Source: a virus
Length of the DNA: 64,000 bases
Reading direction: 5' to 3' (one strand)
Virus record (IMG/VR): IMGVR_UViG_3300019477_000133
Location: 6,076 to 70,075 of that record
This document shows, in pieces, positions 5,296 to 31,309 of this stretch. A program made the position numbers and the translations under genes. The stretch's first letter is position 1. Each line of letters starts with the position of its first letter. The notes below the pieces were generated by a model, which worked only from the letters and a program-made list of their open reading frames with translations, was not told the origin of the DNA and made no database searches.

Positions 5296-5901
5296 ATGGA
5301 AAAGAAGTATAAACTTTTAAAAGATGACTATATTGACTTTCATTTATACTATGATAGTGAAGATGAAAGTGAAATGCAAGAAGAATATAGACTTTATAGA
5401 ATACAAGCATTACGAGACTTTGGTGATGTTAAAAAAGGCGAATTAGGTGGATATATCCAAACCCAAAAGAATTTAAGTCATAGTGGAAATTGTTGGGTGT
5501 ATGATAATGCTATAGCTGGAGATGACTCTAAAGTTAAAAATAATGCTAAAGTGATGGATGGAGCTATTTTGAGAGGAGCAGCTGTTGTATCTAAGAACGC
5601 AGTGTTGACAAACAATGCTAAACTTGCGTCTTCTGCTATCGTTACTGATAACGCTGTCGTTGAATTTACTGATATTTATGGAGAAAACGTAATTAAAGAT
5701 AACGCTGTTTTGGATGGTGGTGAAATTTATGGCAATTTAGTTGTGAGTGGAAATGCTAAGTTATCTGGAGGTTTCATTTTCTTTGGTTATAAAAATGGTG
5801 AAATCAGTGGAAATATAGATTTAGAATTTAGTACGATTAGAAAATCATTCCGTGATAAATTTGAAACAAATGAAGAACTATTAAACTACATTAATAGTTA
5901 A
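5296..5901 (+). CDS. hexapeptide-repeat (left-handed beta-helix-like) protein
   Basis: repeats of the type NAKVMDGAILRGAAVVSKNAVLTNNAKLASSAIVTDNAVV... Confidence 0.45.
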   Translation: MEKKYKLLKDDYIDFHLYYDSEDESEMQEEYRLYRIQALRDFGDVKKGELGGYIQTQKNLSHSGNCWVYDNAIAGDDSKVKNNAKVMDGAILRGAAVVSKNAVLTNNAKLASSAIVTDNAVVEFTDIYGENVIKDNAVLDGGEIYGNLVVSGNAKLSGGFIFFGYKNGEISGNIDLEFSTIRKSFRDKFETNEELLNYINS

Positions 5902-5915
5902 TATAAATTAATAAA

Positions 5916-6806
5916 ATGGGCGATATAAGCTTACTAACTAAAATTAAGGACTTTAAAAGTCCATGGTGTTATCAATATCAAAGACGTTTAGATACTTTAG
6001 AAGAAGATAAAGAAATACTTGGATGGACTGATGATGATATAAAAAACATCAATCTTGACGAATTTGAATTTTCTTTTATTACCACCAAAGAAGAAAAGAA
6101 AGAAGCAACAGATTTTATCAAACGTTATGAATGGCTTGGTACTGTAGGTAGTTACCCAACACATTGGTTTGCAGCACGCTATAAAGGAATTTTAGGTGGT
6201 GTAATCATTATGGGTATGCCAAATGCTTTCAGTAAACTTTTAGGTGAGAAGACTAAAGATATAGAACGTCTTATAGCACGTGGCGCAAGTGCATCATGGA
6301 CACCGATGAATCTTGGAAGTAAGTTCTTAATGTGGTGTATCAAGTGGATGACTAAGAATACACAATATCGCCTATTTACCTGTTATAGTGACCTACAAGC
6401 GAAAGAAAATGGTTCGATATACCAAGCACTCAACTTTTACTTTTTAGGGGCTGGAAGTGGAACAAATGTAAGATGTGTTAATCCATATAATCCAGAAAAG
6501 ATTATGACGGATAGAGCTTTTAGGTCAAAAAGTTTCTACAAACGTTATGCTAAAGACCTTGGAATAGAATGGCAGAAGAACTGGTCAAATAGCCAACGTA
6601 TGCTTTGGGAAAATATCCCTGATGACATTGAAAAAGAATTAAGATATTATTCCAAAAAGATGTTTGCCGAATCTGAAAAGATTTATTTTCCATCAAAATA
6701 TAAATACGCTTTTATTTTAGGTAAAGATAAAAGAGAAACGAAACGTTTGAGAAATGAATTTTTAAATAAAAACAAAGTATATGAGTACCCCAAAAGAGAA
6801 AAATAA
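5916..6806 (+). CDS. hypothetical protein
   Basis: 296-aa ORF. Confidence 0.5.
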   Translation: MGDISLLTKIKDFKSPWCYQYQRRLDTLEEDKEILGWTDDDIKNINLDEFEFSFITTKEEKKEATDFIKRYEWLGTVGSYPTHWFAARYKGILGGVIIMGMPNAFSKLLGEKTKDIERLIARGASASWTPMNLGSKFLMWCIKWMTKNTQYRLFTCYSDLQAKENGSIYQALNFYFLGAGSGTNVRCVNPYNPEKIMTDRAFRSKSFYKRYAKDLGIEWQKNWSNSQRMLWENIPDDIEKELRYYSKKMFAESEKIYFPSKYKYAFILGKDKRETKRLRNEFLNKNKVYEYPKREK

Positions 6807-9502: not shown

Positions 9503-12316
9503 ATGACAAGTAACGTAAAAAGGCATGTGCAGCTGCCAAGAAGCTCACAAAAAGGTAAGAAACCTACAGCAGAAGATTTAAAGTATGGCGAAATTGCTGT
9601 TAACTTTAACGTTGAAGACCCATTCCTCGCTATGAAGGGAAGTGACGACTCAATTATCACAATGGGTTTTAAAGATGGTAAAACTGGACCATGGAAAAAA
9701 GGTGAAGGTGAATATTCTGCAGTGTTAGATAATGGTACACCAACCAGTCCTATTGATACAGTGAATACTGCTACAAAAAGGTATGCTACAGCTGAGGGTA
9801 AAGGTAGTACAGCAAGTGGTGATTACTCTCATGCTGAAGGTAGAGGTACTACAGCAAGTGGTGAAAGTTCTCATGCTGAAGGACAAAATACTACAGCAAG
9901 TGGTGATTCTGCCCATGCTGAAGGCTATAATACTACTGCCAGTGGAATAAATTCTCACGCTGAGGGTAAACATACTACCGCAAGTTTATTTTATTCTCAT
10001 GCAGAGGGTAATAATACTACTGCGAGCGGTGAAAGTTCTCATGCAGAGGGTAATAATACTACTGCAAGCGGTAGTAGGTCTCATGCTGAGGGTAATAATA
10101 CTACTGCGAGCGGTGAAAGTTCTCATGCAGAGGGTAATGGCACTACAGCAAGTGGTAATGCATCTCATGCGGAAGGATATGAAACTACAGCAGATGGAGA
10201 AAATTCTCATGCTGAAGGTAATGATACTACAGCAAATGGAAGTCAATCACATTCTGAAGGTGCTGGTACTAAAGCAATAGGAAGACAATCACATGCGGAA
10301 GGTAATTACACAATAGCAAGCGGTGAAAATTCTCATGCTGAGGGAAATTACACCACAGTCAAAGGTACCAACTCTCATGGAGAAGGAAATCATAAGGTAG
10401 ATTTGATATTAGTTAAAAATATTGCAGTTGGTGATACAAAAATTATTATTGAAAGTAAACGAATGAATATTCCTTCTAATGAGGATTATATTAAAAATTG
10501 TTATATTACAGATGATAATAACATATATAATATTTTAACCATTTCATCATATAATGGAACATTGCCAGCTAATTTCCAAGGTCTTGCAAAAGAAATAACA
10601 GTAGATAAACCTTTGGAAAAAGTATCTAATAATGATACCAATAATCCTACATTTACTTCAGATATATATTCATTTGTAAATATAGCCGTAGGAGAAATAG
10701 ATGGTGGACATTCAGAAGGTAAAAATAATATTGTTTTAGGAGAAGCTGGGCATGCAGAAGGTAAATTTACGATGGCTAAAGGTAGAACATCTCATGCGGA
10801 AGGGTGTAAGACTACGGCAATTGGTGATTATTCACATGTGGAAGGATATACTACTACTGCAGAAGGTATATATTCTCATGCCGAGGGTTATCTAACTAAA
10901 GCAAAAGGTAAAATGTCTCATTCAGAAGGGCTTAGTACCACAGCAGAAGGCGAGAAATCTCACTCAGAAGGAGAGAGTACAACTGCAAGTGGCAGTTATT
11001 CTCACGCAGAAGGTAGTCGCTCCACAGCAAGTGGTAAGAGTTCTCACGCTGAGGGTAATAATACAACTGCAAGTGGACTTTCTTCTCACTCAGAGGGTGA
11101 TTCTACGAGAGCTACTGGTCGATATTCTCACGCAGAAGGTTTTAATACAAATAGTGCAGCAGACTACTCTCACACAGAAGGTGGTGGTGGTATTGCTATT
11201 AGTGTCGCAAGTCACGTAGAAGGTTTACATTATCATGCTTTACAAATAACAGATGACATTGCCGTTGGAAGTACTGAAATGTTTATCTTAGCTTCGGAAG
11301 ATTATTCAGTCAACTTAAATTATTATAAGAATTGTATAATAACGGATAATACTAATACCGTAGCTATTGATGTATTAAGTGCAGAATATGCCTATAATAC
11401 TAAGTTTACCGAATCGAATGAAAACAAACGTATAAAGTTAACTTTAAAAGAAGCATTACCTAAAGCATCTACACGTGCGGAACAAACTGAAGATAACCAA
11501 AAAGATGGATACTTTTATACATGGGATTACAGTATACAGAATAAGGGTACTATAGGAAATTATGGTAGCCACGCAGAAGGGTCATACACAATGGTATATG
11601 AAGATTCTGGTCACGCTGAGGGTAAACTTTCTATATCTAAGGGTAAAATGTCTCACGCTGAGGGTTATCGTACAATTGCAGATGGTAGTGCTGCTCATGC
11701 CGAAGGTTATCAAACAATAGCAAAGGGTGTTAATTCACATGCGGAGGGCGAAAATACTACAGCAAATGGTAATAATTCTCATGCAAGTGGGTTCCACACA
11801 ACAGTTGAAAATGATTCAGAATTTGCTTGTGGTAAATACAATAAGTTTAATGTAAATCAAATTTTTTCAATTGGTGTTGGTACAGCTGATAATGCGAGAA
11901 AAAATGCTTTATATATAACTACAGATGGTGTTATTGGTGGAGATTCACAATTAACTAATGGTGGCACTTCAATGTTTGGTTTGAAGATAAATGGTGGTAT
12001 TCAGGCAAGCGAGGGTATGATATCGCCTACTTATTTAAATTCTTCAGATGAGAGATTAAAGAAGGATATTGAAACAATATCAGAAGATGACATTGATAAA
12101 GTTAAAAATGTTAATTTAAAATCATATGTATTTAAGTCTGATAATAGCAAACATTATGGTGTTATTGCACAAGATGTTGAAAAAGCAGGTTTATCAGAAT
12201 TAGTTACCAATAGTTCTGATGGAATGAAATCTGTTGATTATATTTCTTTATTAATTTTGAAGATTTCAGAATTGGAAAATGAAATAAAGAATTTAAAAGA
12301 ACAGATTAAAAAATAA
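9503..12316 (+). CDS. tail fibre / tailspike with SHAEG-type repeats and a C-terminal intramolecular chaperone (peptidase S74) domain
   Basis: dozens of 14-aa repeats SHAEGnnTTASGxx; C-terminal ...SDERLKKDIETIS...GVIAQDVEK... resembles the S74 autoproteolytic chaperone. Confidence 0.65.
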   Translation: MTSNVKRHVQLPRSSQKGKKPTAEDLKYGEIAVNFNVEDPFLAMKGSDDSIITMGFKDGKTGPWKKGEGEYSAVLDNGTPTSPIDTVNTATKRYATAEGKGSTASGDYSHAEGRGTTASGESSHAEGQNTTASGDSAHAEGYNTTASGINSHAEGKHTTASLFYSHAEGNNTTASGESSHAEGNNTTASGSRSHAEGNNTTASGESSHAEGNGTTASGNASHAEGYETTADGENSHAEGNDTTANGSQSHSEGAGTKAIGRQSHAEGNYTIASGENSHAEGNYTTVKGTNSHGEGNHKVDLILVKNIAVGDTKIIIESKRMNIPSNEDYIKNCYITDDNNIYNILTISSYNGTLPANFQGLAKEITVDKPLEKVSNNDTNNPTFTSDIYSFVNIAVGEIDGGHSEGKNNIVLGEAGHAEGKFTMAKGRTSHAEGCKTTAIGDYSHVEGYTTTAEGIYSHAEGYLTKAKGKMSHSEGLSTTAEGEKSHSEGESTTASGSYSHAEGSRSTASGKSSHAEGNNTTASGLSSHSEGDSTRATGRYSHAEGFNTNSAADYSHTEGGGGIAISVASHVEGLHYHALQITDDIAVGSTEMFILASEDYSVNLNYYKNCIITDNTNTVAIDVLSAEYAYNTKFTESNENKRIKLTLKEALPKASTRAEQTEDNQKDGYFYTWDYSIQNKGTIGNYGSHAEGSYTMVYEDSGHAEGKLSISKGKMSHAEGYRTIADGSAAHAEGYQTIAKGVNSHAEGENTTANGNNSHASGFHTTVENDSEFACGKYNKFNVNQIFSIGVGTADNARKNALYITTDGVIGGDSQLTNGGTSMFGLKINGGIQASEGMISPTYLNSSDERLKKDIETISEDDIDKVKNVNLKSYVFKSDNSKHYGVIAQDVEKAGLSELVTNSSDGMKSVDYISLLILKISELENEIKNLKEQIKK
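9815..10390 (+). repeat. tandem 42-nt (14-aa) coding repeats inside the tail fibre gene; further blocks at about 10748-11183 and 11543-11813
   Basis: periodic tctcatgctgagggtaataatactactgcgagcggtgaaagt-type units. Confidence 0.6.
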
Positions 12317-16558: not shown

Positions 16559-17035
16559 CTATTTCACTGGTATAATACCTTGAGAAATCATTTTATTAAG
16601 TTTTCTTGCAACTTTATATGTCATAGGGCGTTCATGTTTAAGAATTTTTCTTAACTGAGACTGGGCACCTTCTGGAGTATGAGAAGAAAATACCTTTCTT
16701 GCTGCAGCTGCTAAATCTAAAGTATCCATATTAATTTTAGAAATAATACTATTGGCAAGGTCTTTATTAACTTCAATATTGCTTCGCTTCCAATCATTAA
16801 AGTCATAACGTTGAGTACCACCACCAGAAAGTTTACGTGTTTTAATATCCTTTGTCTTTACAGGTTTCTTCTTATCTTTATTTTTACCACCAACACTATC
16901 AGCAGCCTTATCTCCTTTACGGCTCTTTAAGAAACGTTTAAAAGCATCTAAAACTTCCTTACTAACAGGACGTTTTGCTTCATTAATAAATATCTTATTT
17001 AATTCCTCATTAATTATAGAATCTATTGTATTCAT
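16559..17035 (-). CDS. hypothetical basic (Lys-rich) protein
   Basis: 158-aa minus-strand ORF. Confidence 0.45.
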   Translation of the reverse strand: MNTIDSIINEELNKIFINEAKRPVSKEVLDAFKRFLKSRKGDKAADSVGGKNKDKKKPVKTKDIKTRKLSGGGTQRYDFNDWKRSNIEVNKDLANSIISKINMDTLDLAAAARKVFSSHTPEGAQSQLRKILKHERPMTYKVARKLNKMISQGIIPVK

Positions 17036-17204
17036 TCTTACTTTTATTTAAACTTTAATTATCATATATAAATATTATATCAACCGCTGTTTTAAATAAA
17101 ATATGAATATAAAATAAAAATAAATGTTAATTTTAAAAGATATATTTGGTTTAGTGAAAATAAAATAGTATCTTTGCAACATAAAATTAAAAAAAAATAA
17201 AGAT

Positions 17205-18857
17205 ATGTCACAGAATTTATTTATCGAGGCAACAAAGTACAAACAGTATACTTTTACTGAGAATGGTGCACTTACAATGGCTTCAACAGGAAGCGAGTTA
17301 GCTAATCAGTTTGGTTTAGCTGGTAATTATCGTGGACGTAATATTTCAGATGTATTCTCAGACCAAGAGAAACTTTGGAATGAATCACATGAATATTCTA
17401 CACGTTTTCCTTTCTATCTGCGAATGATTACACGAAAGGTTAAAGTTAATAATGATACCACTACAGACAATGTACAGAGTGGACAAGGTCAGCGTGACGA
17501 AACTTTTAAAAGACTTCTGTGGCTTGCAAAGTATCATAAGGATACTTTCAATAATAACGTGTGGATTTTGCCTCTTATTGGGTCTTGGAAGGATTTATGG
17601 GCTATCATGTATTACGATGAGAAATTTGAAATCAATGCTATTGATAGAGAAATCATCTACAGAATAATTCATGAAGGACTCAAGTGTGATGCACATGTAA
17701 ATCTTGTTAAGAAGTTTATGCCTCGCATTAAGTCAAAATCTCACATTAAGACTGATTGGAATAAGCTTACAAATAAGTATGCCAAAGAATTTGCTAAGTT
17801 ATTCTCATTGTCTTACAAAGAGTATAATCATCTTAAGACTTCTGGAACATCTCATGATTTCCAAAAGTTGATGTGTTCAAGAAATTATGATAAGATTAAA
17901 TGGAATACAATTCCAGGACGTGCATTGAGTATAATTACCAATGGTAAATTCTTAGAGAATCATAACCTTATTGATTCATACACAGAGTGGGTTCTTAAGC
18001 AGGATAATATCAAGTTTACAGGTTATCCATATGAGTTAATCAAAAACTTGAAGAAACATTGTTACATTTATTATAATAGAAAGAATAATATTTCAGTTCT
18101 TCCTAAGTACATTACGACAACCATTAATAAGCAATTTAATGAGTTGATAGAAAAAGGTAAGAATGTCGGTGGTATCAATGGAAATGTATGGTGTGCATTA
18201 GACACATCTGGTTCTATGAACACAGGTGTACATGGTGATACTACAGCATTAGATATATGTCTTTCATTAGGACTTTATTTTTCAACACTTAATACAGGTG
18301 CATTCCATAAGAATGTAATCATGTTTGATGATACCTCTCGTGTATTGCAGCTTAAGGGTGAGTTCTGTGATATGATGAAGCAGATTCCTGATAATGCAAT
18401 GGGTGGAACTAATTTCCAATCAGTTGTTGATGAAATAGTAAGAATAAGAACTAAACATCCAGAGATTCCACTTACAGATTATCCTCAAACACTTTTAGTT
18501 GTATCAGATATGCAATTCAATGCCACAAATAATTATTGGATTCAATCTACAGATGTAGAAAATACGACGAATTATGAAGAGGCTAAGAAGAAGTTGAAGA
18601 GTGTATTCCCAGAGGAATTTGTTGATGAGTTCAGATTCATTTGGTGGAATTGTGCTTCTCGGCATACAGACTTCCCTGCAACAATTAAGGACGGAGGATG
18701 TTATTTCTTGAGTGGTTTTGATGGTTCTATTATTTCTTTACTGTTAGGTGGAGAAGAAGTAGATACCAACACAGGTGAGAAGAAGAAGTTAAGTATGGAA
18801 GAGTTAATGCATAAAGCACTTACTCAAGAGATTCTTAATTATATTGTAGTTGAATAA
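17205..18857 (+). CDS. vWA-domain protein with a TROVE/DUF2828-like N-terminus (Ro60-like architecture)
   Basis: MIDAS motif in WCALDTSGSMN followed by vWA-like alpha/beta segments; ~320-aa N-terminal helical region; promoter tatctttgcaac at 17169. Confidence 0.5.
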   Translation: MSQNLFIEATKYKQYTFTENGALTMASTGSELANQFGLAGNYRGRNISDVFSDQEKLWNESHEYSTRFPFYLRMITRKVKVNNDTTTDNVQSGQGQRDETFKRLLWLAKYHKDTFNNNVWILPLIGSWKDLWAIMYYDEKFEINAIDREIIYRIIHEGLKCDAHVNLVKKFMPRIKSKSHIKTDWNKLTNKYAKEFAKLFSLSYKEYNHLKTSGTSHDFQKLMCSRNYDKIKWNTIPGRALSIITNGKFLENHNLIDSYTEWVLKQDNIKFTGYPYELIKNLKKHCYIYYNRKNNISVLPKYITTTINKQFNELIEKGKNVGGINGNVWCALDTSGSMNTGVHGDTTALDICLSLGLYFSTLNTGAFHKNVIMFDDTSRVLQLKGEFCDMMKQIPDNAMGGTNFQSVVDEIVRIRTKHPEIPLTDYPQTLLVVSDMQFNATNNYWIQSTDVENTTNYEEAKKKLKSVFPEEFVDEFRFIWWNCASRHTDFPATIKDGGCYFLSGFDGSIISLLLGGEEVDTNTGEKKKLSMEELMHKALTQEILNYIVVE

Positions 18858-18917: not shown

Positions 18918-19805
18918 ATGAAAAATTGGGAAAAAATTTTTAATACAATGGTATATTCTACCCTACAATATCTAAATGATTATGGAATTAATAATATGAT
19001 TTTAGGTATTTCTGGTGGTATAGATTCAACACTTGTAGCTGCTATTTGTCATGAAGTGGTAAAACGTTCTGATGGAAAAAAGAAGTTATTAGGATATTCT
19101 CTTATGTGTTCTACTAATCAATCAGATGAAGTAAAAGCAGCAGAAATGGTCGGTAAATCTTTATGCACGGAGTATCAGAGTATTAATTTGGAAGAAGATT
19201 ATAATACTATTTCAAGTAGTTTATCAAATCATTTCAAAGTAGATTCACCAATTGCTAATGGTAATATTAAAGCAAGATTGAGGATGCTATATCTTTATCA
19301 TTGTGCTTCAATTTATAATGGTATAGTTATGGACACTGATAACTATAGTGAACACCAACTTGGTTTTTGGACATTACATGGTGATGAGGGAGACTTTAAT
19401 CCTATTGGCGAATTATATAAGACCGAAATATATGAATTATGCGAATGGCTTTGTACTAAATATTACGTAAATGATAAAGATATCAGGCAAGCAATAGAAG
19501 AATCATATAAATTAACTCCTACAGATGGAAATGGTGTTAAGATGGGTGGTGACATGGCGCAGATTGCACCAGGACTAACTTATAAAGAAGTAGATAGAAT
19601 ACTTTTTGAAACTCAGATATGGGGTTGCCATAAGTATAATGACATCATTCTAAAAAGACTTTCTGAAGAGAAATGGTTTGATGAAGATATTGTCAAAGGC
19701 GTTATTAATAGAGTTAAAAATAGCGCATTTAAACGCAGACATCGTCCATTAAAAATTGATTTGGGGACAGGTGAAATAACACAGCAAATTTGTAAAGAAA
19801 AATAA
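18918..19805 (+). CDS. nadE: NH3-dependent NAD+ synthetase
   Basis: PP-loop LGISGGIDSTLVAAIC; NadE-specific NIKARLRMLYLY...MDTDNYSEHQLGFWTLHGDEGDFNPIG. Confidence 0.8.
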   Translation: MKNWEKIFNTMVYSTLQYLNDYGINNMILGISGGIDSTLVAAICHEVVKRSDGKKKLLGYSLMCSTNQSDEVKAAEMVGKSLCTEYQSINLEEDYNTISSSLSNHFKVDSPIANGNIKARLRMLYLYHCASIYNGIVMDTDNYSEHQLGFWTLHGDEGDFNPIGELYKTEIYELCEWLCTKYYVNDKDIRQAIEESYKLTPTDGNGVKMGGDMAQIAPGLTYKEVDRILFETQIWGCHKYNDIILKRLSEEKWFDEDIVKGVINRVKNSAFKRRHRPLKIDLGTGEITQQICKEK

Positions 19806-24393: not shown

Positions 24394-24461
24394 GAAAAAT
24401 TTGGAGGTTTCAAAAAAAGTTAGTATCTTTGCATCACAATTAAGAAATAAGAGTTCTTTGA
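24394..24461 (+). promoter_or_regulatory. 68-nt promoter block (gaaaaatttggaggtttcaaaaaaagttagtatctTTGcatcacaattaagaaa...gagttctttga) duplicated at 27324-27391, where it sits 19 nt upstream of tRNA-Lys
   Basis: near-identical duplication; contains the -7-like tatctttgca. Confidence 0.55.
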
Positions 24462-24479: not shown

Positions 24480-24558
24480 GTCAAATATAATTAGGAAACG
24501 TACAGCAAAAGAATTTGAATAGGGTTCATGAGGGTTGGTTCGATTCCAAAATGTGACC
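24480..24558 (+). tRNA. tRNA-like element / possible pseudo-tRNA: acceptor-like pairing gtcaaat/atgtgac and a GGTTCGATTCC T-loop, but no canonical D or anticodon arm
   Basis: starts 19 nt after the promoter block, the same spacing as tRNA-Lys after the duplicate block; cloverleaf incomplete by hand. Confidence 0.2.
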
Positions 24559-24608
24559 GCAATAGGTACGTTTAGTGTATTGGTAGCACGCATTTTGTTT
24601 CCTTAACA

Positions 24609-24681
24609 TGTGACATGGAGAAGTGGCATCTCGGTGGCAAACTTATAGCTGCAGTCATTGGTTCGATTCCAATTGTCGCAA
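24609..24681 (+). tRNA. tRNA-like element, 73 nt: acceptor tgtgaca/tgtcgca, D-stem gaga/tctc, T-arm attgg-ttcgatt-ccaat, anticodon arm not foldable
   Basis: hand fold; likely a degenerate or non-canonical tRNA. Confidence 0.3.
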
Positions 24682-24711
24682 CATTTGAAAACCAATTTTA
24701 ATTTTTAAATA

Positions 24712-25764
24712 ATGAGAATGAAGAAGTTTATTTTTATGACACTCATCTCAATGATGAGTTTTGTTAGTGCAAATGCACAGACAGCACTTCAAAGTACAAA
24801 GTTGATGGATAACACTTATGTAGGTGTAATGGGTGGTGTACACACCAACATGAAGCTTAATAAGGTATTTCCTCTCAACAGTTCAGTTGGAGTACGTGTT
24901 GGAAAAGAGATTAGTCCAGTATTCGGTATCCAATTTGCAGGTGTAGCTGCTCTTGGTGACAATTACGTAAATGACTCTCATACATTTATTAAGGCAGTAA
25001 ACGCTGAAATGAATGGTACAATTAATTGGAGTAACCTCATTTTCGGGTATAATGGTGTTCCTCGCAGATTCGAAGTTAGTTCAGTAACTGGTATTGGATG
25101 GTTGGCATTCCTTAACGGTTCACATCGTTCATATAATAATAATATGGGTGATGGAGACGAACTCACTGCAAAGACAGCACTCGAGTTTGCCTTTAATCTT
25201 GGTAATGCAAGGGCATGGCGTATTTTCGTACAGCCTGGTGTTTATTGGAACATGACACATGGTCCAGGTGATGCTGTACAATTTGGTAGCTCAGCAGCAC
25301 AGATGGGTGTTCAGGTCGGTGTTGATTACAAGTTTAAGACATCTAATGGTACACATAATTTTAAGATGTATAACATTGGTGACTATAACAATGAAATCAA
25401 TACACTTCGTAACGACCTATCTAAGAAGCCAAAGGAAGTTACAAAGGTTGTAGAGAAGATTGTAGAAAAGCAGAATGTTGTTAAGCAGAATGTGTACGTT
25501 ATCGCTTTCGATAATGATAAAGCAGAACTTAGCAATGATGCAAAGAATGTTCTCAATAGTATCGCTGCAAATACAGATGTAACTGTAGAGGGCTATGCTG
25601 ATGGTGTAGGTAGTGATACCTATAATCAGAATCTATCAGAACGTCGTGCAACCACTGTGACTAATTATCTTACACAGCGAAACGTGAATGTACGTAGTTC
25701 AAATGGTTTTGGTAAGACAGGAAAGTACTCAGCACGAGTAGTTATTGTTGAGCCAGTACGCTAA
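24712..25764 (+). CDS. OmpA-family outer-membrane protein (signal peptide, beta-barrel region, C-terminal OmpA-like domain)
   Basis: signal peptide MRMKKFIFMTLISMMSFVSANAQTA; C-terminus ...GYADGVGSDTYNQNLSERRATTV is the OmpA_C signature; locally higher GC. Confidence 0.8.
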   Translation: MRMKKFIFMTLISMMSFVSANAQTALQSTKLMDNTYVGVMGGVHTNMKLNKVFPLNSSVGVRVGKEISPVFGIQFAGVAALGDNYVNDSHTFIKAVNAEMNGTINWSNLIFGYNGVPRRFEVSSVTGIGWLAFLNGSHRSYNNNMGDGDELTAKTALEFAFNLGNARAWRIFVQPGVYWNMTHGPGDAVQFGSSAAQMGVQVGVDYKFKTSNGTHNFKMYNIGDYNNEINTLRNDLSKKPKEVTKVVEKIVEKQNVVKQNVYVIAFDNDKAELSNDAKNVLNSIAANTDVTVEGYADGVGSDTYNQNLSERRATTVTNYLTQRNVNVRSSNGFGKTGKYSARVVIVEPVR

Positions 25765-25800
25765 TACCGAATTAACTGATACTATTAGGTTGTAAAGATT

Positions 25801-25923
25801 ACTATAGTGAGAAGGATGTTATGATTTTATTCACTGCAATGAGATTTTCAGACTCTCACGTTAAATAATAAAATGATTCGAGACTGGAGAGTCTTGCGTA
25901 CTTTTAACTACTTCTCACATAGT
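25801..25923. repeat. long imperfect nested palindrome: outer actatagtgagaag/cttctcacatagt, inner cagactctc/gagagtct
   Basis: inverted repeats read directly downstream of the OmpA-like gene. Confidence 0.5.
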
Positions 25924-26091
25924 GGTCAATACAATTAAAGAAAATAACTATTGGTTACGTACAGCACGAAAAATTATAGTATTTATTTAACTTCCGATGT
26001 ACATAAGTTTTATAAACTTATTCAGTTTGAAATCGCTGTGATGATTTCCGTAACCTAATTTAGTTATTAAACTAAAAGAATAGAAAAAAAT

Positions 26092-26301
26092 ATGAGAATT
26101 GTTATTATCTTGTTGATTATTCTAATTTTTATATCATTTGGTATATTTATCAATGGTATAAGAAATTCTAAACTTAGAACGATACATAATGTTATGGAAG
26201 ATAACGAACATAATGATGAATTACGTAAACGTTCAAATCGTAGAAAAAAAGTTACTATCATAGAAGAGATGCCAGATAATAATGATAACACGGTGGAATA
26301 G
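26092..26301 (+). CDS. small membrane protein (doubtful); its 3' end overlaps tRNA-Arg
   Basis: 69-aa ORF with a hydrophobic N-terminus. Confidence 0.25.
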   Translation: MRIVIILLIILIFISFGIFINGIRNSKLRTIHNVMEDNEHNDELRKRSNRRKKVTIIEEMPDNNDNTVE

Positions 26302-26365
26302 CTCAACTGAATAGAGCAACGGCCTTCTAAGCCGTAGGTTGCGAGTTTGAATCTCGCTTCCATCA
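26292..26365 (+). tRNA. tRNA-Arg(TCT)
   Basis: acceptor ggtggaa/ttccatc, D gctc/gagc, anticodon stem acggc/gccgt with loop ctTCTaa, T-arm gcgag-tttgaat-ctcgc. Confidence 0.75.
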
Positions 26366-26384
26366 CATCATAACTCAATTTTTA

Positions 26385-26425
26385 CCACAAGTTAGATTTG
26401 TTTCTGCTTGTGGTGATTTTTTTTG
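26385..26425 (+). terminator. rho-independent terminator after tRNA-Arg
   Basis: ccacaag...cttgtgg hairpin plus a T9 run. Confidence 0.6.
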
Positions 26426-26442
26426 TATAAAACAATATGCAA

Positions 26443-26500
26443 TTATCAATAAATCCAATTAATCAATAAAAAAGATTGATATGTTGATAAAAAAATCAAC
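26443..26500 (+). promoter_or_regulatory. operator-like direct and inverted repeats (ATCAATAAA x2, TTGATA x2, ATCAAC) upstream of the HTH regulator gene
   Basis: aattATCAATAAAtccaattaATCAATAAAaaagaTTGATAtgTTGATAaaaaaATCAAc. Confidence 0.35.
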
Positions 26501-26534
26501 TTAAGATATATTTATTAATAAAAAAAATAAATAT

Positions 26535-26741
26535 ATGAACGGATTTGAAAATTGGATAAAAGATATATGTAAGAGAAAACGCATGAAATTAAAAGATGTA
26601 TCAACAAAGATGGGTGTTGAACCAGCTTCTTTAACAAGAACATTAAAAGGTGGAAACCCACGATTAGATACATTGGTAAAACTATCAGAAGCGTTAGAAG
26701 TAGAAATAACAGCTTTAATTCCACAGGAAATTAAGCCATAA
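26535..26741 (+). CDS. XRE/Cro-type helix-turn-helix transcriptional regulator
   Basis: KLKDVSTKMGVEPASLTRTLKGGNPRLDTLVKLSEAL is an HTH_3-like helix-turn-helix. Confidence 0.6.
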   Translation: MNGFENWIKDICKRKRMKLKDVSTKMGVEPASLTRTLKGGNPRLDTLVKLSEALEVEITALIPQEIKP

Positions 26742-27079
26742 TAAAAAAAATATTTATAAAATAAGTAACTTTTGATACATAGGTTATATTTATAATAAAA
26801 TTCATATAAAAAATGATACGTACATCAAATAAACAAAGTAATCAGCATAACATATTTGTTACATCCAACAAGTATGATAATGATGCTATGTTTTTTGAAT
26901 ACGACATAAATAATAATAATAATAATAGTATTTCAACAATACGGAATTTATATGAATGTATAACCTAAATTAAAAAGGGTTTTTGCACTTACTTCACTAA
27001 ATATATTTCCAAGCTGTTGAATAAACTTAAACAAAAGTTGATTTAGCAGCTTTTTTAGTACATTTACAATTAGACAATA

Positions 27080-27313
27080 ATGACAGTAGATAACCTTATA
27101 CCATTATTAAATGGTCATGCAGAATTAAGATGTGTCATAGAAAAGAAAATAGCTGAATACAAAATTATAGCTACTGATGGACACGAGTACTTAATAGATA
27201 TAGATATTAGTGACAAGAAAGATGTAAAACCTCAAAAATGCATAAAATGTGAATATATTAACGATTTACTAAGGAAAATCAACCAAAATAATGATTTTAT
27301 AAAAATAAAATAA
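27080..27313 (+). CDS. hypothetical protein
   Basis: 77-aa ORF. Confidence 0.3.
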   Translation: MTVDNLIPLLNGHAELRCVIEKKIAEYKIIATDGHEYLIDIDISDKKDVKPQKCIKCEYINDLLRKINQNNDFIKIK

Positions 27314-27323
27314 AAAAAATCAC

Positions 27324-27391
27324 TGAAAAATTTGGAGGTTTCAGAAAAAGTTAGTATCTTTGCATCACAATTAAGAAACAAGAGTTCTTTG
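27324..27391 (+). promoter_or_regulatory. second copy of the 68-nt promoter block, driving the tRNA cluster
   Basis: duplicate of 24394-24461 with 2 mismatches. Confidence 0.55.
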
Positions 27392-27409
27392 ACTTATTGG
27401 AACAACAGA

Positions 27410-27482
27410 TGCGCTCATAGCTCAGTTGGTAGAGCACCACACTTTTAATGTGGGAGTCTTGGGTTCGAGCCCCAATGGGCGT
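27410..27482 (+). tRNA. tRNA-Lys(TTT)
   Basis: acceptor gcgctca/tgggcgt (two G.U pairs), D gctc-agttggta-gagc, anticodon stem ccaca/tgtgg with loop ctTTTaa, T-arm ttggg-ttcgagc-cccaa. Confidence 0.8.
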
Positions 27483-27496
27483 ACAACTGAAAAAAA

Positions 27497-27649
27497 TAAT
27501 AGGTAGCCGTACTACCGAATTTACGCTTGTGGACTATCCTCCTATGGATGACTGATTGTAGCAATACAATGTACTAAAAAGTAATGATAGGTTGAAGCAA
27601 GAAGTGAAAAGTACCCAAATCATATATTTGCGTAGATTTTCATATACGG
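27497..27649 (+). ncRNA. orphan copy of the ~155-nt structured RNA found immediately 3' of tnpB (omegaRNA-like scaffold); no adjacent tnpB
   Basis: about 95% identical to 33871-34029 apart from an internal hairpin that differs with compensatory changes (attgtagcaatacaat versus attgagtagtaaactactcaat). Confidence 0.55.
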
Positions 27650-27853
27650 TCCTGAGTTCGAGTCCCAGTGGGCAACTCATACATTTACAAAAAGTAATAC
27701 CCATGCAAATGGTTTCTTGGCTAAGAATGATGCTAATTGTAATTTTAAACAAAACTAATTCAGTAATTGATAGAATTTAGTCGACATAAATTCTTGATAG
27801 CTACGTTGGTAACGTTACAACCAAATTATATCCTATTACATATAGGAGAATCA

Positions 27854-27927
27854 CAGTGCATTAGTTCAGTAGGTTAGAATACTGCCCTGTCACGGCATAG
27901 GTCACGGGTTCGAGTCCCGTATGCACT
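27854..27927 (+). tRNA. tRNA-Asp(GTC)
   Basis: acceptor agtgcat/atgcact, anticodon loop ctGTCac, T-arm acggg-ttcgagt-cccgt. Confidence 0.75.
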
Positions 27928-27936
27928 GCATAAAAT

Positions 27937-28031
27937 CTTCTGTGTGCTGTTATGGTATCAGACGTGCGAAAGCAGCATTGGTTTAATCCAAAAGAGCAGA
28001 GCGTTTAGTTGGTTCGAATCCAACCACAGAA
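27937..28031 (+). tRNA. atypical 95-nt tRNA-like RNA: perfect 7-bp acceptor ttctgtg/cacagaa and T-arm gttgg-ttcgaat-ccaac, with an abnormal anticodon/variable region carrying the motif aaaagagcag
   Basis: hand fold; anticodon unresolved; may contain an intron or insertion or be a tRNA-like ncRNA. Confidence 0.3.
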
Positions 28032-28044
28032 GATACTTACAACC

Positions 28045-28166
28045 ACCTCACTTAGCTCAGTTGGTTAGAGCGACGTTACCAAGAATTTTTCCTGTATGGA
28101 AAAGAGCAGCAAAGTTTAAATTTGATTTGTAATCCGTGTGTCATCGGTTCAAGTCCGATAGTGAGG
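28045..28166 (+). tRNA. atypical 122-nt tRNA-like RNA: acceptor cctcact/agtgagg (7/7), canonical D-arm gctc-agttggtta-gagc, T-arm atcgg-ttcaagt-ccgat, ~50 nt extra in the anticodon/variable region. Internal hairpin ttttc-ctGTAtg-gaaaa could be a Tyr anticodon arm. Shares the aaaagagcag...gttta motif with 27937-28031.
   Basis: hand fold. Confidence 0.3.
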
Positions 28167-28176
28167 TGGAATTTTA

Positions 28177-28248
28177 TTAGGGGATGGAGCAGAGGTAGCT
28201 TGCTGGGCTCATAACCCAGAGGTCGGGGGTTCGACTCCCTCTCCCCCA
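28177..28248 (+). tRNA. tRNA-Met/Ile2-type (CAT), copy 1
   Basis: anticodon stem ctggg/cccag with loop ctCATaa, T-arm ggggg-ttcgact-ccctc; one A.C mismatch in the acceptor stem. Confidence 0.65.
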
Positions 28249-28317
28249 ACAACTTAGGAAACAAACAGCAGATTTTCTCTTTTTTTATGGAATAAAAATA
28301 ATAATGTTTCCTTAACT

Positions 28318-28388
28318 TTGAGATATGGTGTAATGGTAACACTGTAGGTTTTGGTCCTGCCATTATAGGTTCGACTCCTATTGTCTCA
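28318..28388 (+). tRNA. tRNA-Gln(TTG)
   Basis: acceptor tgagata/tgtctca, D gtgt/acac, anticodon stem gtagg/cctgc with loop ttTTGgt, T-arm atagg-ttcgact-cctat. Confidence 0.75.
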
Positions 28389-28393
28389 ACAAA

Positions 28394-28467
28394 TGCTTTA
28401 GTAGCTCAGCTGGTTAGAGCACCTGACTGTTAATCAGGAAGTCGCAGGTTCGAGTCCTGCCTGAAGC
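28394..28467 (+). tRNA. tRNA-Asn(GTT)
   Basis: acceptor gctttag/ctgaagc, anticodon stem cctga/tcagg with loop ctGTTaa, T-arm gcagg-ttcgagt-cctgc. Confidence 0.8.
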
Positions 28468-28495
28468 GCATGGAAGTATCTTAAGAAGACTTTCA

Positions 28496-28539
28496 AGAGA
28501 GTGCCACCGAGTAATGCAAGCATAGGTGGACAACACTCT
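28496..28539 (+). other. nested hairpin (gagagtg-ccacc...ggtgg-cactctc) between tRNA genes; possible processing or structural element
   Basis: inverted repeats read directly. Confidence 0.3.
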
Positions 28540-28601
28540 CGTCCAAAGAAGTATGGTATTATGACATTATAAAATAGAGTATTACCTGAATCGCATAATT
28601 A

Positions 28602-28673
28602 TTGCAGGATAGAGCAGTGGTAGCTTGCTGGGCTCATAACCCAGAGGTCGGGGGTTCGACTCCCTCTCCTGCA
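28602..28673 (+). tRNA. tRNA-Met/Ile2-type (CAT), copy 2, with encoded CCA
   Basis: acceptor tgcagga/tcctgca, D gagc-agtggta-gctt, anticodon loop ctCATaa, T-arm ggggg-ttcgact-ccctc, followed by ACCA. Confidence 0.8.
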
Positions 28674-28680
28674 ACCATTC

Positions 28681-28767
28681 TGGAGAGTTGGCTGAGTGGC
28701 TTAAAGCGCTGGTCTTGAAAACCAGAGGACAGTAAAATGTTCCAAGAGTTCGAATCTCTTACTCTCC
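28681..28767 (+). tRNA. tRNA-Ser(TGA)
   Basis: acceptor ggagagt/actctcc, anticodon stem ctggt/accag with loop ctTGAaa, long variable arm, T-arm aagag-ttcgaat-ctctt. Confidence 0.8.
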
Positions 28768-28775
28768 TCTTATAT

Positions 28776-28867
28776 TGGAGATTTAAGCCTAATTGGTAAG
28801 GCAGCAGTTTGCTAAACTGCCAGTAATCGTAGTAATATGGTGTATAGGTTCGAATCCTATAATCTCC
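28776..28867 (+). tRNA. tRNA-Ser(GCT)
   Basis: acceptor ggagatt/aatctcc, anticodon stem gcagt/actgc with loop ttGCTaa, long variable arm, T-arm atagg-ttcgaat-cctat. Confidence 0.75.
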
Positions 28868-29294
28868 GCATTTGCGATTTTTGAATGGAATAATAGAAAA
28901 ACAAAAATGAAGTATGGATTTTGTACCTAAATGGTTTTATTGAGGGATTTTCCCCACATACATTTTTTAGAATAAGGAAATATTTTAGTTTTTCGAAAGA
29001 TTCTATTTTAGAAAAGATTGTATTATTAATTTAAAGAGTAAGTTATGAAAAAGAATTATGTAACACCAGAGGTGGAAATTTACACGGCTTTAGTGGAGCA
29101 GCCATTTATGAGTTTATCTACAGTTAAATTTGGTGACGTGACAAATGGTGGAGAAAATACTGACGAGAACGGTGTACTGCCATCAGATACTCCTACAGAC
29201 GATGAGTGGGGTGAAATTGGTTGGGACTAATTACAACAACTATCGAGAGTATTAATTATCAAGCGTAACAAATTAAAAATGAATAATATAAAAA

Positions 29295-31175: not shown

Positions 31176-31187
31176 GTATGCTTAACA

Positions 31188-31216: not shown

Positions 31217-31217
31217 A

Positions 31218-31291: not shown

Positions 31292-31309
31292 CTTAAAAAA
31301 ATCAGTAAT

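What the first reader, a model, noticed from the sequence alone, without database searches (positions are those of the whole stretch)
17205..18857. Ro60-like architecture: TROVE/DUF2828-like N-terminal region plus a C-terminal vWA domain with MIDAS
The C-terminal third has a clear von Willebrand A fold signature including the MIDAS motif DTSGS (WCALDTSGSMN). It is preceded by a ~320-aa helical region. This N-terminal-repeat plus vWA layout is that of Ro60/Rsr RNA-binding proteins and of the phage DUF2828 family, which is distantly related to TROVE. In a genome with this many tRNA and RNA-repair genes, an Rsr-like RNA chaperone or quality-control factor, possibly partnered with tRNA-like Y RNAs, is plausible but unproven.
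Basis: inference. Interest (0 to 1): 0.55.

Follow-up and report, generated by a model that had tools for sequence, protein, structure and literature searches.

The report
Phage Ro60-like protein and Y-like RNAs
The gene encodes a phage member of a large, uncharacterised protein family that folds like the RNA-binding ring protein Ro60, and in many unrelated phages, including this one, such genes travel with small RNAs not filed in Rfam (a terminal stem plus an ACAGCAA motif, some tRNA-like) that are its likely partners.

Summary
ORF 17205..18857 (+) encodes 550 aa, with an about 325-aa helical N-terminal region and a C-terminal vWA domain carrying a complete MIDAS (D333-x-S-x-S337, T402, D435).

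The Ro60-like reading is supported.
- The protein is a DUF2828/DUF7788 protein. It falls in phrog_850 'RNA-binding protein', the same PHROG as the true TROVE Ro60 of mycobacteriophage Bxz1.
- Profile-profile comparison with TROVE Ro60 gives 93.7% probability.

On its own the protein is an ordinary new member of a family already annotated as Ro-like.

No canonical Y RNA (YrlA) is present. I did find tandem small RNA-like units on the gene's strand beside DUF2828 genes in about a dozen unrelated phage lineages. Each has a 7-10 bp terminal stem, (U)ACAGCAA, a variable interior and the closing stem. Counts were 45 units on the gene strand, 5 on the opposite strand and about 3.7 in shuffles. In most arrays one unit carries a permuted tRNA-like module, as YrlA does.

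The window has one long unit (24493..24603) and one short unit (28256..28312) in its tRNA array. Binding and function are inferred, not shown.

The parts
17205..18857 (+). Gene for the Ro60-like protein (550 aa; DUF2828-type helical region plus DUF7788 vWA domain; phrog_850)
17205..18179 (+). N-terminal helical-repeat region (aa 1-325). Its last third (aa ~205-325, with the conserved W233..I236-P237-G238) aligns with the C-terminal part of the TROVE domain
18180..18857 (+). vWA domain with complete MIDAS: DTSGS at 18201..18215, T402 at 18408..18410, D435 at 18507..18509; C-terminal SGFDGS motif equivalent to SGFDS of Ro60
   Evidence: Pfam DUF7788; invariant columns; alignments to Ro60
17169..17176 (+). 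TAtcTTTG, resembling the Bacteroidota -7 promoter element TAnnTTTG (element recalled from memory), 29 nt before the ATG. The same TAGTATCTTTGCA string precedes the long RNA unit
   Evidence: read directly from the sequence; function inferred
24424..24431 (+). Second TAtcTTTG promoter-like element, about 60 nt upstream of the long RNA unit
   Evidence: read directly from the sequence; function inferred
24493..24603 (+). Candidate Y-like RNA, long form (111 nt): AGGAAACG | UACAGCAAA | variable | T-arm-like UUGG-UUCGAUU-CCAA | hairpin | D-arm-like GUGU-AUUGGUA-GCAC | UGUUUCCU. It ends 5 nt before tRNA-Lys(CUU)
   Evidence: Only 1 of 200 shuffles of the window yields a unit meeting the strict criteria. 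The unit is present in relatives L001, L004 and L006; L006 has a G-to-A change that turns a G-U pair into A-U
28256..28312 (+). Candidate Y-like RNA, short form (57 nt): AGGAAACA | A ACAGCAG (one mismatch to the core) | U-rich interior | UGUUUCCU. It lies between tRNA-Met and tRNA-Gln. The homologous unit in relative L001 (16551..16607) has the exact ACAGCAA core
24609..34138 (+). tRNA array (15 tRNA genes) on the same strand as the gene, with the two RNA units embedded in it

Best explanation
The gene encodes a phage Ro60-like RNA-binding protein of the DUF2828/DUF7788 family. It has an alpha-helical repeat domain joined to a MIDAS-bearing vWA domain, arranged as in the Ro60/Rsr ring.

It most likely forms ribonucleoprotein particles with phage-encoded small RNAs that play the part of Y RNAs. 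In these RNAs the 5' and 3' ends pair in a 7-10 bp stem, and a conserved single-stranded (U)ACAGCAA follows the 5' strand. In one RNA per array the interior is a permuted tRNA-like module (T arm, acceptor-like hairpin, D arm), as in bacterial YrlA.

In this phage the two RNA genes (24493..24603 and 28256..28312) sit in the tRNA array, 5.6 and 9.4 kb downstream on the same strand.

By analogy with Rsr/YrlA and with Thermus phage phiRo60, the particle would bind structured or damaged small RNAs (tRNAs above all). It would also engage or restrain a host exoribonuclease such as PNPase during infection, alongside the phage's own tRNA-repair genes (a CCA-adding enzyme and a kinase-phosphatase-RNA ligase fusion).

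Shown here: fold resemblance, remote homology, and genomic co-occurrence of protein and RNA genes. Inferred: the protein-RNA binding, the partner nuclease and the physiological role.
For: Protein.
- hhalign against a TROVE Ro60 profile gives 93.7%, E 1.9e-7, 265 columns.
- The family HMM against PDB sequences returns human Ro60 (3.2e-4) and Xenopus Ro60 (9.2e-4) as best hits.
- The window protein is in phrog_850 at 5e-57, and Bxz1 TROVE Ro60 is in the same PHROG at 2.8e-140.
- The MIDAS is complete.

RNA.
- The scan for a stem plus ACAGCAA found 45 units on the gene strand in 412 kb of loci, 5 on the opposite strand, and a mean of 3.7 in dinucleotide shuffles. Of the 45, 38 lie within 1.2 kb of the gene.
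- Arrays of 2-5 units flank the gene in Listeria P100, Felixounavirus wV8, Campylobacter CP81, Staphylococcus 6ec, Leptolyngbya Lbo-JY46, Mycobacterium Archie and uncultured loci L045-L050.
- In a held-out test on four further phages, Enterococcus iF6 had 3 units and Bacillus PK-3 had 4.
- The TROVE-type Bxz1 locus has none and carries a YrlA hit instead.
- Long units share the order T arm, hairpin, D arm.
- The window's long unit passes strict criteria met in only 1 of 200 shuffles.

Context.
- Homologues lie 166 bp to 2.8 kb from tRNA genes on the same strand in 6/6 reference phages.
- An RNA ligase and a CCA-adding enzyme flank the homologue in Yersinia phage fHe-Yen9-04.
- The window encodes a CCA-adding enzyme and a Pnkp-like RNA ligase fusion.

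Precedent.
- phiRo60 binds Yrl RNAs and host PNPase (PMC12135203).
- The authors of the CKA15 study proposed a Ro/Y-RNA pair for the P100-like homologue (PMC12282133).
Against: - Pfam TROVE is not matched, and vWA_Ro60 is matched only weakly by 6/48 homologues.
- The first about 215 aa show no significant profile similarity to TROVE.
- Foldseek found nothing significant.
- In the window the RNA units are 5.6 and 9.4 kb from the gene, not adjacent. The short one has a core mismatch. Their folding z-scores are weak (-1.1 and -1.3).
- Several DUF2828 phages show no unit with this core: Pseudomonas Milchi, Yersinia fHe-Yen9-04, T4-like phiAS5 and nt-1, and many megaphage relatives.
- There are no expression or binding data for these units. 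The most abundant CKA15 transcript region is a different spot.
- The terminal stems were a search criterion, so pairing itself is not independent evidence.
Confidence: 0.6

Rival explanations
1. The protein is Ro60-like and acts on tRNAs or damaged RNAs directly, for example as a scaffold for the phage's RNA repair enzymes. The ACAGCAA units are unrelated to it. They would be features of tRNA-array transcripts, such as processing signals, spacers or degenerate tRNA relics, that sit near the gene only because the gene sits near tRNA arrays.
For: In the window and in wV8 the units are embedded in tRNA arrays. The gene neighbours tRNAs in 6/6 reference phages. Long units contain tRNA-derived arms. 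Pseudomonas Milchi has the gene inside a tRNA array with no units.
Against: In Staphylococcus 6ec, Archie, Leptolyngbya phage, L046, L047 and Bacillus PK-3 the arrays abut the gene, not a tRNA cluster. The nearest tRNA is 1.7-2.7 kb away or absent from the locus. The short units have no tRNA features. The Bxz1 TROVE locus with tRNAs has none.
Confidence: 0.2
2. It is a generic vWA/MIDAS protein with a helical adaptor domain that mediates protein-protein contacts, for example as an assembly cofactor or a virion-associated or injected protein. It would have no specific RNA role, and the resemblance to Ro60 would reflect ancient common ancestry only.
For: The homologue CKA15_055 is discussed in the section on the proteome of purified CKA15 particles. 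The Erwinia phage homologue is annotated 'putative structural protein'. The N-terminal fold match is not specific. No RNA-binding motif was demonstrated.
Confidence: 0.12
3. The ACAGCAA units are not RNAs at all but DNA-level repeats, such as protein-binding sites, recombination sites or miniature mobile elements, that happen to include inverted termini.
For: They occur in tandem with short constant spacers (TGATAA in the Leptolyngbya phage). Their predicted folding energies are unremarkable.
Against: There is a strict strand bias with respect to the gene (45 vs 5). Stem sequences differ from unit to unit while the ends stay complementary. tRNA-like T and D arms lie inside the long units. The Leptolyngbya-phage units resemble an expressed RNA family, scoring up to 39.3 bits on Rfam RF01414. 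A promoter-like element precedes the window unit.
Confidence: 0.06

Closest known systems
Ro60 / Rsr (TROVE + vWA_Ro60) with Y RNAs (YrlA/YrlB, Yrn1), including mycobacteriophage Bxz1 gp220 and Thermus phage phiLo phiRo60 with Yrl1/Yrl2
   Different: No Pfam TROVE or vWA_Ro60 match, and the first about 200 aa are unalignable. The RNA motif is (U)ACAGCAA rather than GNCGAA(N)G. There is no Rfam YrlA hit, although the model does detect the Bxz1 YrlA. GNCGAA motifs occur at chance level in the window. In this window the RNA genes are 5.6-9.4 kb away instead of within 4 kb.
DUF2828/DUF7788 family (PF11443 + PF25043), equal to the non-TROVE part of phrog_850 'RNA-binding protein'; 'Ro-like RNA binding protein' of cluster L mycobacteriophages, Listeria P100 gp165/CKA15_055, Felix O1/wV8 gp47
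   Same: Full-length homology (phrog_850 E 5e-57). tblastn hits in 678 phage records, 244 of them covering at least 80% of the query. The same two-domain layout and MIDAS.
   Different: At most 31% identical to any deposited phage protein. It belongs to an uncultured jumbo/megaphage clade with its own synteny: sigma factor, a divergent 158-aa gene, this gene, then NAD synthase. No member of the family has a demonstrated function. LeBron gp53 is merely toxic when overexpressed (PMC13148394).
Dictyostelid Class I RNAs (Rfam RF01414)
   Same: Both are about 55-65 nt, with a 6-8 bp stem joining the 5' and 3' ends. The motif CUUACAGCAA follows directly after the 5' strand, the interior is variable and A/U-rich, and the 3' end is CUG. 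Leptolyngbya-phage units score 39.3, 30.7, 26.2 and 19.2 bits against the model (gathering score 41.5).
   Different: All hits are below the gathering score, and the window's own units are not hit at all. Class I RNAs are reported as unique to Dictyostelia and bind the RRM protein Rnp1A (PMC7919456). Whether Dictyostelium has a DUF2828 protein was not tested, so the resemblance may be convergent.

Membership tests
DUF2828/DUF7788 (phrog_850) | C-terminal DUF7788 vWA-like domain above Pfam's curated cut-off | tested here: met
   PF25043 E 4.9e-20, 72.2 bits against a cut-off of 27.1, aa 333-533
DUF2828/DUF7788 (phrog_850) | N-terminal DUF2828 domain above Pfam's curated cut-off | tested here: inconclusive
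   The protein itself scores 16.7 bits against a cut-off of 29 (E 0.0035, aa 18-136 only). All 48 aligned homologues (54-62% identical) hit PF11443, best 1.5e-10.
DUF2828/DUF7788 (phrog_850) | Full-length match to the PHROG profile | tested here: met
   phrog_850 E 5.1e-57, aa 10-528 against profile positions 11-458 of 476
Ro60/Rsr (TROVE family) | Pfam TROVE domain (PF05731) | tested here: not met
   No TROVE hit at E<=1 for the protein or for any of 48 homologues. The control, Bxz1 gp220, scores 9.4e-50.
Ro60/Rsr (TROVE family) | Ro60-type vWA domain (PF25045) with MIDAS | tested here: inconclusive
   PF25045 is hit weakly by 6/48 homologues (best 0.004) and not by the window protein. The MIDAS DxSxS/T/D is complete. 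The vWA aligns to the Ro60 vWA in hhalign and hmmsearch.
Ro60/Rsr (TROVE family) | HEAT-repeat ring closed by the vWA domain | tested here: inconclusive
Ro60/Rsr (TROVE family) | Binds Y RNA and misfolded RNA 3' ends | not testable with these tools
   Needs EMSA, RIP-seq or a structure
YrlA / bacterial Y RNA (RF02553) | Match to the covariance model; GNCGAA(N)G motif near the 5' end | tested here: not met
   No meaningful YrlA hit in the window. There was none at E<=5 over 64 kb. The only hit in the 4-kb subsearch scores 17.9 bits, E 3.8, and spans two adjacent tRNA-like elements. The motif occurs at chance frequency. The control locus Bxz1 gives 32.5 bits, E 3.9e-4.
YrlA / bacterial Y RNA (RF02553) | 5' and 3' ends pair in a stem; tRNA-like module in the order T arm, acceptor-like hairpin, D arm | tested here: met
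   Window unit 24493..24603 and the long units of L045, wV8 and Archie show this order. This rests on inspection of an alignment, not on a covariance test.
YrlA / bacterial Y RNA (RF02553) | Encoded within about 4 kb of the Ro gene on the same strand | tested here: not met
   In the window the units lie on the same strand but 5,636 and 9,399 nt downstream. The criterion is met in P100, wV8, CP81, 6ec, Lbo-JY46, Archie, iF6, PK-3 and L045-L050.
Dictyostelid Class I RNA (RF01414) | Score at or above the Rfam gathering threshold | tested here: not met
   The best phage unit scores 39.3 bits against 41.5. The window units are not reported at E<=5.

The most novel reading that the evidence does not exclude
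DUF2828-type proteins and stem-plus-ACAGCAA RNAs form a second, widespread Ro60/Y-RNA-like ribonucleoprotein system of tailed phages. It runs parallel to TROVE-Ro60/YrlA and is absent from Rfam and the searchable literature. Each array holds one tRNA-mimicking RNA and several short ones. An extension of this reading is that the orphan, highly abundant Class I RNAs of dictyostelid amoebae, which share the stem plus CUUACAGCAA design, are the eukaryotic counterparts and partner with eukaryotic DUF2828 proteins. That would give both the RNA class and the protein family a testable function.
Probability: 0.4. Interest if true: 0.8.

Novelty: new variant of a known kind. Interest (0 to 1): 0.6.

Why it matters
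Ro60 and its Y RNAs are a conserved RNA quality-control system and a major human autoantigen. In bacteria and phages they are known only for TROVE-annotated proteins with YrlA-type RNAs.

The DUF2828 family is far more common in phages. It occurs in 678 of 50,697 deposited genomes, including the therapeutic or biocontrol phages Felix O1 and P100 and Campylobacter phages. It has no demonstrated function or ligand.

A recognisable partner RNA class gives a direct experimental handle, through binding assays and deletion phenotypes. It also explains many small unannotated or mis-annotated 'ORFs' beside these genes. It suggests that phages routinely bring their own tRNA-mimic RNPs along with their tRNA arrays and RNA-repair enzymes, possibly to blunt host RNases or anticodon-nuclease defences.

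The similarity to dictyostelid Class I RNAs, if more than coincidence, would connect an unexplained eukaryotic ncRNA class to a protein family.

Tried and rejected
- phmmer and a shallow profile against PDB sequences found nothing. Only the diverse profile A4 reached Ro60.
- Rfam at gathering and at E<=5 over the whole window returned only tRNAs, with no Y_RNA or YrlA.
- The GNCGAA(N)G motif occurs at chance level.
- Conserved intergenic sequence next to the gene in relatives: weak blastn hits are scattered AT-rich, promoter-like strings. The conserved roughly 300-nt gap downstream of the gene in megaphage relatives is a lysine-rich ORF of about 55 aa, not an ncRNA.
- hhalign of the N-terminal 215 aa against the TROVE N-terminus was not significant.
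- Defence or anti-defence role: there were no PADLOC or NCBIfam hits for the protein or its conserved neighbours.
- TelA/TerF-type vWA link: TelA lies 2.4 kb downstream only in the window's own clade. vWA-TerF-like was hit by 1/48 homologues at E 0.078. Rejected.
- The two odd tRNA-like elements at 27934..28172 were considered as Y-like candidates. They have the normal tRNA arm order and lack the ACAGCAA motif, so they are set aside as noted in passing.
- Link to the most abundant CKA15 transcripts: the published region 26,236-26,727 does not coincide with the P100/CKA15 units at 25,278-25,566.
- No covariance model of the units was built. MAFFT aligned the 5' stem and motif but left the 3' stems ragged, so I used an explicit pattern scan with shuffle and strand controls instead.
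- A literature search for the motif string was uninformative. Avesson et al. 2011, on Class I RNA-binding proteins, is not held.
Full report
**1. The observation**

The ORF is at 17205..18857 on the + strand. It has an ATG start, encodes 550 aa, and contains WCALDTSGSMN.
- Pfam places DUF7788, a vWA-like domain, at aa 333-533 (E 4.9e-20, above the cut-off). It also gives a sub-threshold DUF2828 match at aa 18-136 (16.7 bits against a cut-off of 29).
- The MIDAS is complete. D333, S335 and S337 are invariant in both alignments. T402 (in GGTNF) and D435 (in SDMQF) are invariant in a 48-sequence alignment and present in over 90% of a 56-sequence alignment that reaches down to 25% identity.
- An AlphaFold2 model built on the 48-sequence alignment has pLDDT 80.8 and pTM 0.80. 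It shows an all-helical region (aa 30-320) followed by an alternating strand/helix vWA fold.

**2. What the protein is**

It belongs to a very large family.
- The word-indexed search found 2095 homologues.
- The exhaustive search found 2708 clusters at 50% identity with E<=1e-3.
- tblastn hit 678 of 50,697 deposited phage genomes. These include Felixounavirus, Listeria P100-like, Campylobacter, Staphylococcus, Enterococcus and Bacillus phages, T4-like Aeromonas and Vibrio phages, jumbo Yersinia, Erwinia and Cronobacter phages, and cluster L mycobacteriophages. Deposited annotations read 'RNA-binding protein', 'Ro-like RNA binding protein', 'DUF2828 family protein' or 'von Willebrand factor A-like domain protein'.
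- The best deposited relative is only 31% identical (Leptolyngbya phage Lbo-JY46).
- All 48 aligned close homologues hit both DUF2828 and DUF7788.
- The protein matches phrog_850 'RNA-binding protein' at E 5e-57.
- The true TROVE + vWA_Ro60 protein of mycobacteriophage Bxz1 (gp220; Pfam TROVE 9e-50, vWA_Ro60 4e-54) falls in the same PHROG at 2.8e-140.

**3. Is it Ro60-like?**

*Fold evidence*
- Foldseek against the PDB found nothing significant.
- So the helical region adds about 250 aligned residues and about 6 Z units, in the same position relative to the vWA as in Ro60.

*Sequence evidence*
- hhalign of the family profile against a 37-sequence TROVE Ro60 profile gave 89.3% probability (E 2.1e-6) with the shallow alignment. 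With the diverse one it gave 93.7% (E 1.9e-7, 265 columns).
- The aligned stretch is aa 205-513 against Bxz1 Ro60 aa 228-544. This covers the last third of the repeat domain (W233..IPG aligned to SWEMLPD), the MIDAS, the GGT motif and the C-terminal SGFD motif.
- The diverse family HMM, searched against all 177,635 PDB sequences, returned human Ro60 (3.2e-4) and Xenopus Ro60 (9.2e-4) as its two best hits.
- The first 215 aa show no significant profile similarity to the TROVE N-terminus.

Strict membership of the TROVE family is not.

**4. Genomic setting**

The window belongs to an uncultured AT-rich (31% GC) jumbo phage.
- Proteins 94-97% identical sit on IMG/VR contigs of 210-312 kb. Relatives 50-58% identical sit on 300-430 kb megaphage contigs.
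- Synteny in this clade is conserved: (DnaJ, AAA), a 200-aa protein, a 119-aa protein, (IF3), a sigma-70 factor, a divergently transcribed gene of about 158 aa of unknown function, the DUF2828 gene, (TyrRS), then NAD synthase. RtcB lies 7 kb downstream in one megaphage.
- The window also encodes 16 tRNAs, a CCA-adding enzyme (43871..45172) and a kinase-phosphatase-RNA ligase fusion (59006..61153).
- No defence-system model matches the protein or its neighbours.
- In all six reference phage loci checked with ARAGORN, the Ro-like gene lies 166 bp to 2.8 kb from tRNA genes on the same strand. The loci are P100, wV8, phiAS5, CP81, 6ec and the TROVE-type Bxz1.
- In Yersinia phage fHe-Yen9-04 the gene lies between an RNA ligase and a tRNA nucleotidyltransferase.
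- In three distant uncultured loci, tRNAs and a tmRNA follow the gene.

**5. The search for a partner RNA**

*Canonical Y RNA is absent*
- Rfam found no Y_RNA or YrlA in the window, at gathering thresholds or at E<=5.
- The same YrlA model does detect the known YrlA-like RNA upstream of Bxz1 gp220 (32.5 bits, E 3.9e-4).
- The YrlA motif GNCGAA(N)G occurs at chance frequency.

*A different RNA-like element*
- A relaxed Rfam scan of loci from other phages reported sub-threshold hits to Dictyostelium Class I RNA directly downstream of the Leptolyngbya-phage gene.
- Reading that gap, and the equivalent gap in mycobacteriophage Archie, showed tandem units of one design. Each has a 5' stem strand, then (U)ACAGCAA, a variable interior and the complementary 3' strand.

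*Pattern scan*
- I ran an explicit scan requiring an exact ACAGCAA core, a flanking stem of at least 7 bp with at most one G-U, and a span of 38-160 nt. It covered 24 loci (412 kb).
- It found 45 units on the gene's strand, 5 on the opposite strand, and a mean of 3.7 (range 1-8) in 20 dinucleotide shuffles. Of the 45, 38 lie within 1.2 kb of the DUF2828 gene.
- Arrays of 2-5 units abut the gene in Listeria P100, Felixounavirus wV8, Campylobacter CP81, Staphylococcus 6ec, Leptolyngbya Lbo-JY46, Mycobacterium Archie and uncultured loci L045, L046, L047, L049 and L050.
- Single units sit just upstream of the gene in four megaphage relatives.
- The 50-kb TROVE-type Bxz1 locus has none.

*Held-out test on four further phages*

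| Phage | Result |
|---|---|
| Enterococcus iF6 | 3 units upstream |
| Bacillus PK-3 | 4 units upstream |
| Pseudomonas Milchi | none |
| Vibrio nt-1 | one weak candidate |

*Features across 47 units*
- Stems are 7-9 bp, and all 47 have different sequences.
- Units mostly start AG or AA and end CU or UU.
- The base before the core is U or A in 40 of 47 units.
- The median length is 64 nt.
- Thirteen units are 90 nt or longer, and ten contain a GUUCRA T-loop-like string.
- The long units of the window, L045, wV8 and Archie align in this order: stem, UACAGCAA, variable, T arm (GGUUCGAnUCC), hairpin, D arm (UAGnnnAnnGGUAGnnC), A-rich, stem. This is the permuted tRNA-like module described for YrlA (PMC4201824).

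**6. The units in this window**

*Long unit, 24493..24603 (+), 111 nt*
- Its sequence is AGGAAACG-UACAGCAAA...UGUUUCCU, with T-arm-like, hairpin and D-arm-like elements.
- It lies about 60 nt downstream of a TAGTATCTTTGCA string that also precedes the protein gene. It ends 5 nt before tRNA-Lys(CUU).
- Under strict criteria (stem of at least 8 bp, AG...CU ends, exact core) the window has one unit. Only 1 of 200 shuffles of the window yields any.
- The unit is present in relatives L001, L004 and L006. In L006 a G-to-A change turns a G-U pair into A-U.

*Short unit, 28256..28312 (+), 57 nt*
- Its sequence is AGGAAACA-A-ACAGCAG...UGUUUCCU. It fills the gap between tRNA-Met and tRNA-Gln.
- Its core has one mismatch. 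The homologous unit in relative L001 has the exact core.

*Weaknesses*
- The units lie 5.6 and 9.4 kb downstream of the gene, on the same strand.
- Their folding z-scores are weak (-1.1 and -1.3).
- Rfam's Class I model does not report them.

The case for this window therefore rests on the shared design and on the cross-phage association. It does not rest on adjacency.

**7. Mechanism**

By analogy with established systems, the most likely picture is a phage Ro60-like RNP. Those systems are Ro60/Rsr binding the Y RNA stem on its outer surface and RNA 3' ends in its cavity, Y RNA tethering Rsr to PNPase, and phiRo60 binding Yrl1/Yrl2 and attenuating host PNPase (PMC12135203, PMC4201824).

In this picture the DUF2828 protein recognises the stem plus ACAGCAA module. 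The tRNA-like RNA recruits or decoys tRNA-recognising factors. The short RNAs may gate the protein. The role would be tRNA or small-RNA quality control, or protection against host RNases during infection.

The authors of the CKA15 study independently suggested a Ro/Y-RNA pair for the P100-like homologue. They did so on the basis of HHpred and nearby abundant non-coding transcripts (PMC12282133). Their top region (26,236-26,727) is not the units I found, which map to 25,278-25,566.

Binding, expression and function are all inferred.

**8. Comparison and novelty**

The protein alone is a new, divergent member of a known and already Ro-like-annotated family.

The RNA class is not in Rfam 15. I found no description of it in the searchable literature, and I cannot exclude one elsewhere.

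Its nearest filed relative is the dictyostelid Class I RNA. The Rfam consensus is GaUcuC-CUUACAGCAA-...-GagAuC-UG. Four of the five Leptolyngbya-phage units hit it, at 39.3, 30.7, 26.2 and 19.2 bits against a gathering score of 41.5. Class I RNAs are reported as unique to Dictyostelia and of unknown mechanism (PMC7919456). From memory, Pfam describes DUF2828 as a family of eukaryotes and viruses. Whether Dictyostelium has one was not tested.

I rate the whole as a new variant of a known kind, namely a Ro60/Y-RNA-type system with a divergent protein branch and a different RNA motif.

**9. Verdict**

- The protein by itself is ordinary; I would score it about 0.3.
- The associated RNA class raises the overall interest to about 0.6. 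That score depends on experimental confirmation and on the class being truly undescribed.

Noticed in passing
window 27934..28036 and 28042..28172 (+): Two tRNA-like elements lie between tRNA-Asp and tRNA-Met. Default ARAGORN and Rfam tRNA (E<=5) both miss them. Both have perfect T arms and 7-9 bp acceptor stems. With introns allowed, ARAGORN calls the second a tRNA-Thr(UGU) with a 48-nt insert in the anticodon loop. At a lowered threshold it calls the first a tRNA-Leu(CAG)-like gene with a long extra arm. Both share a hairpin followed by AAAAGAGCAG. The second is 90.7% conserved in relative L001; the first is absent there.
   Followed up: partly
window 32717..33859 (+) and 33860..34065: A TnpB/IS605 OrfB-type gene (HTH_OrfB_IS605, OrfB_IS605, Cas12f1-like TNB domain) sits inside the tRNA array. 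It is followed by a 206-nt gap that is GC-rich for this genome (36%) and could hold its guide (omega) RNA. A related but longer copy is at a different place in relative L001.
   Followed up: no
window 16559..17035 (-) and relatives: A lysine-rich gene of about 158 aa and unknown function is transcribed divergently from the Ro-like gene. This gene (family F3) or another minus-strand gene (F25, relationship to F3 not tested) lies directly upstream of it in most jumbo/megaphage relatives, next to a sigma-70 factor gene. It has no Pfam, PHROG, PADLOC or NCBIfam hit. This may be mere synteny or a functional partner.
   Followed up: partly
window 17169..17176 and 24424..24431 (+): The string TAGTATCTTTGCA occurs upstream of both the protein gene and the long RNA unit. 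It contains TAnnTTTG, which I recall as the -7 element of Bacteroidota promoters. This hints at a Bacteroidota host and at shared regulation. The standard sigma-70 scan was at chance level.
   Followed up: no
L045:8763..9105, L049:9738..10074, L050:13378..13695: Phage-encoded tmRNA genes (Rfam 68-80 bits) lie 1-6 kb downstream of the DUF2828 gene on the same strand in three distant uncultured phages, together with tRNAs and the ACAGCAA units.
   Followed up: no
L047:1005..1189 (+): A Hatchet ribozyme match just above the Rfam gathering score (55.4 bits against 51), 5 kb upstream of the DUF2828 gene of an uncultured phage.
   Followed up: no
L012, L013, L014, L021, L023, L025, L026, L037, L042, L043, L048: the ~300-nt gap after the DUF2828 gene: A conserved, unannotated ORF of about 55 aa, very lysine-rich (for example MFFFFKKSKSKRKRNR...RKKRLVVYAETL), lies between the DUF2828 gene and a tyrosyl-tRNA synthetase gene in megaphage relatives. 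It is absent from the window.
   Followed up: partly
L059:6995..7052 and L047:8550..8606: Unit 2 of the Leptolyngbya phage and unit 3 of uncultured locus L047 share an almost identical interior (UUCUACUUUUAAUGGAAAA-CAAA), although their stems differ and the phages are unrelated. The interiors may therefore not all be free to vary.
   Followed up: no
window 18918..19805, 38113..38727, 45181..45747, 45968..47149: The phage carries a set of NAD-related genes: NAD synthase (directly after the Ro-like gene and syntenic with it across the clade), a NUDIX hydrolase, an isochorismatase-family (nicotinamidase-like) protein and a nicotinate phosphoribosyltransferase. This set could counter NAD-depleting defences.
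   Followed up: no
L054 ~5439..5930 (P100), equivalent to CKA15 26,236..26,727: This region is reported to give up to about two thirds of all phage transcripts in Listeria phage CKA15. It lies between tRNA-Pro and gp166, about 0.7 kb upstream of the ACAGCAA units, and contains no such unit. It looks like a separate, larger non-coding RNA of unknown kind.
   Followed up: partly
window 9809..11765 (+): ACAGCAA is over-represented in the window as a whole (18 occurrences against 8.3 expected). Seven of the + strand copies lie in the repetitive YadA-head-like tail-fibre gene (9503..12316). They are coding repeats and are unrelated to the RNA units.
   Followed up: yes
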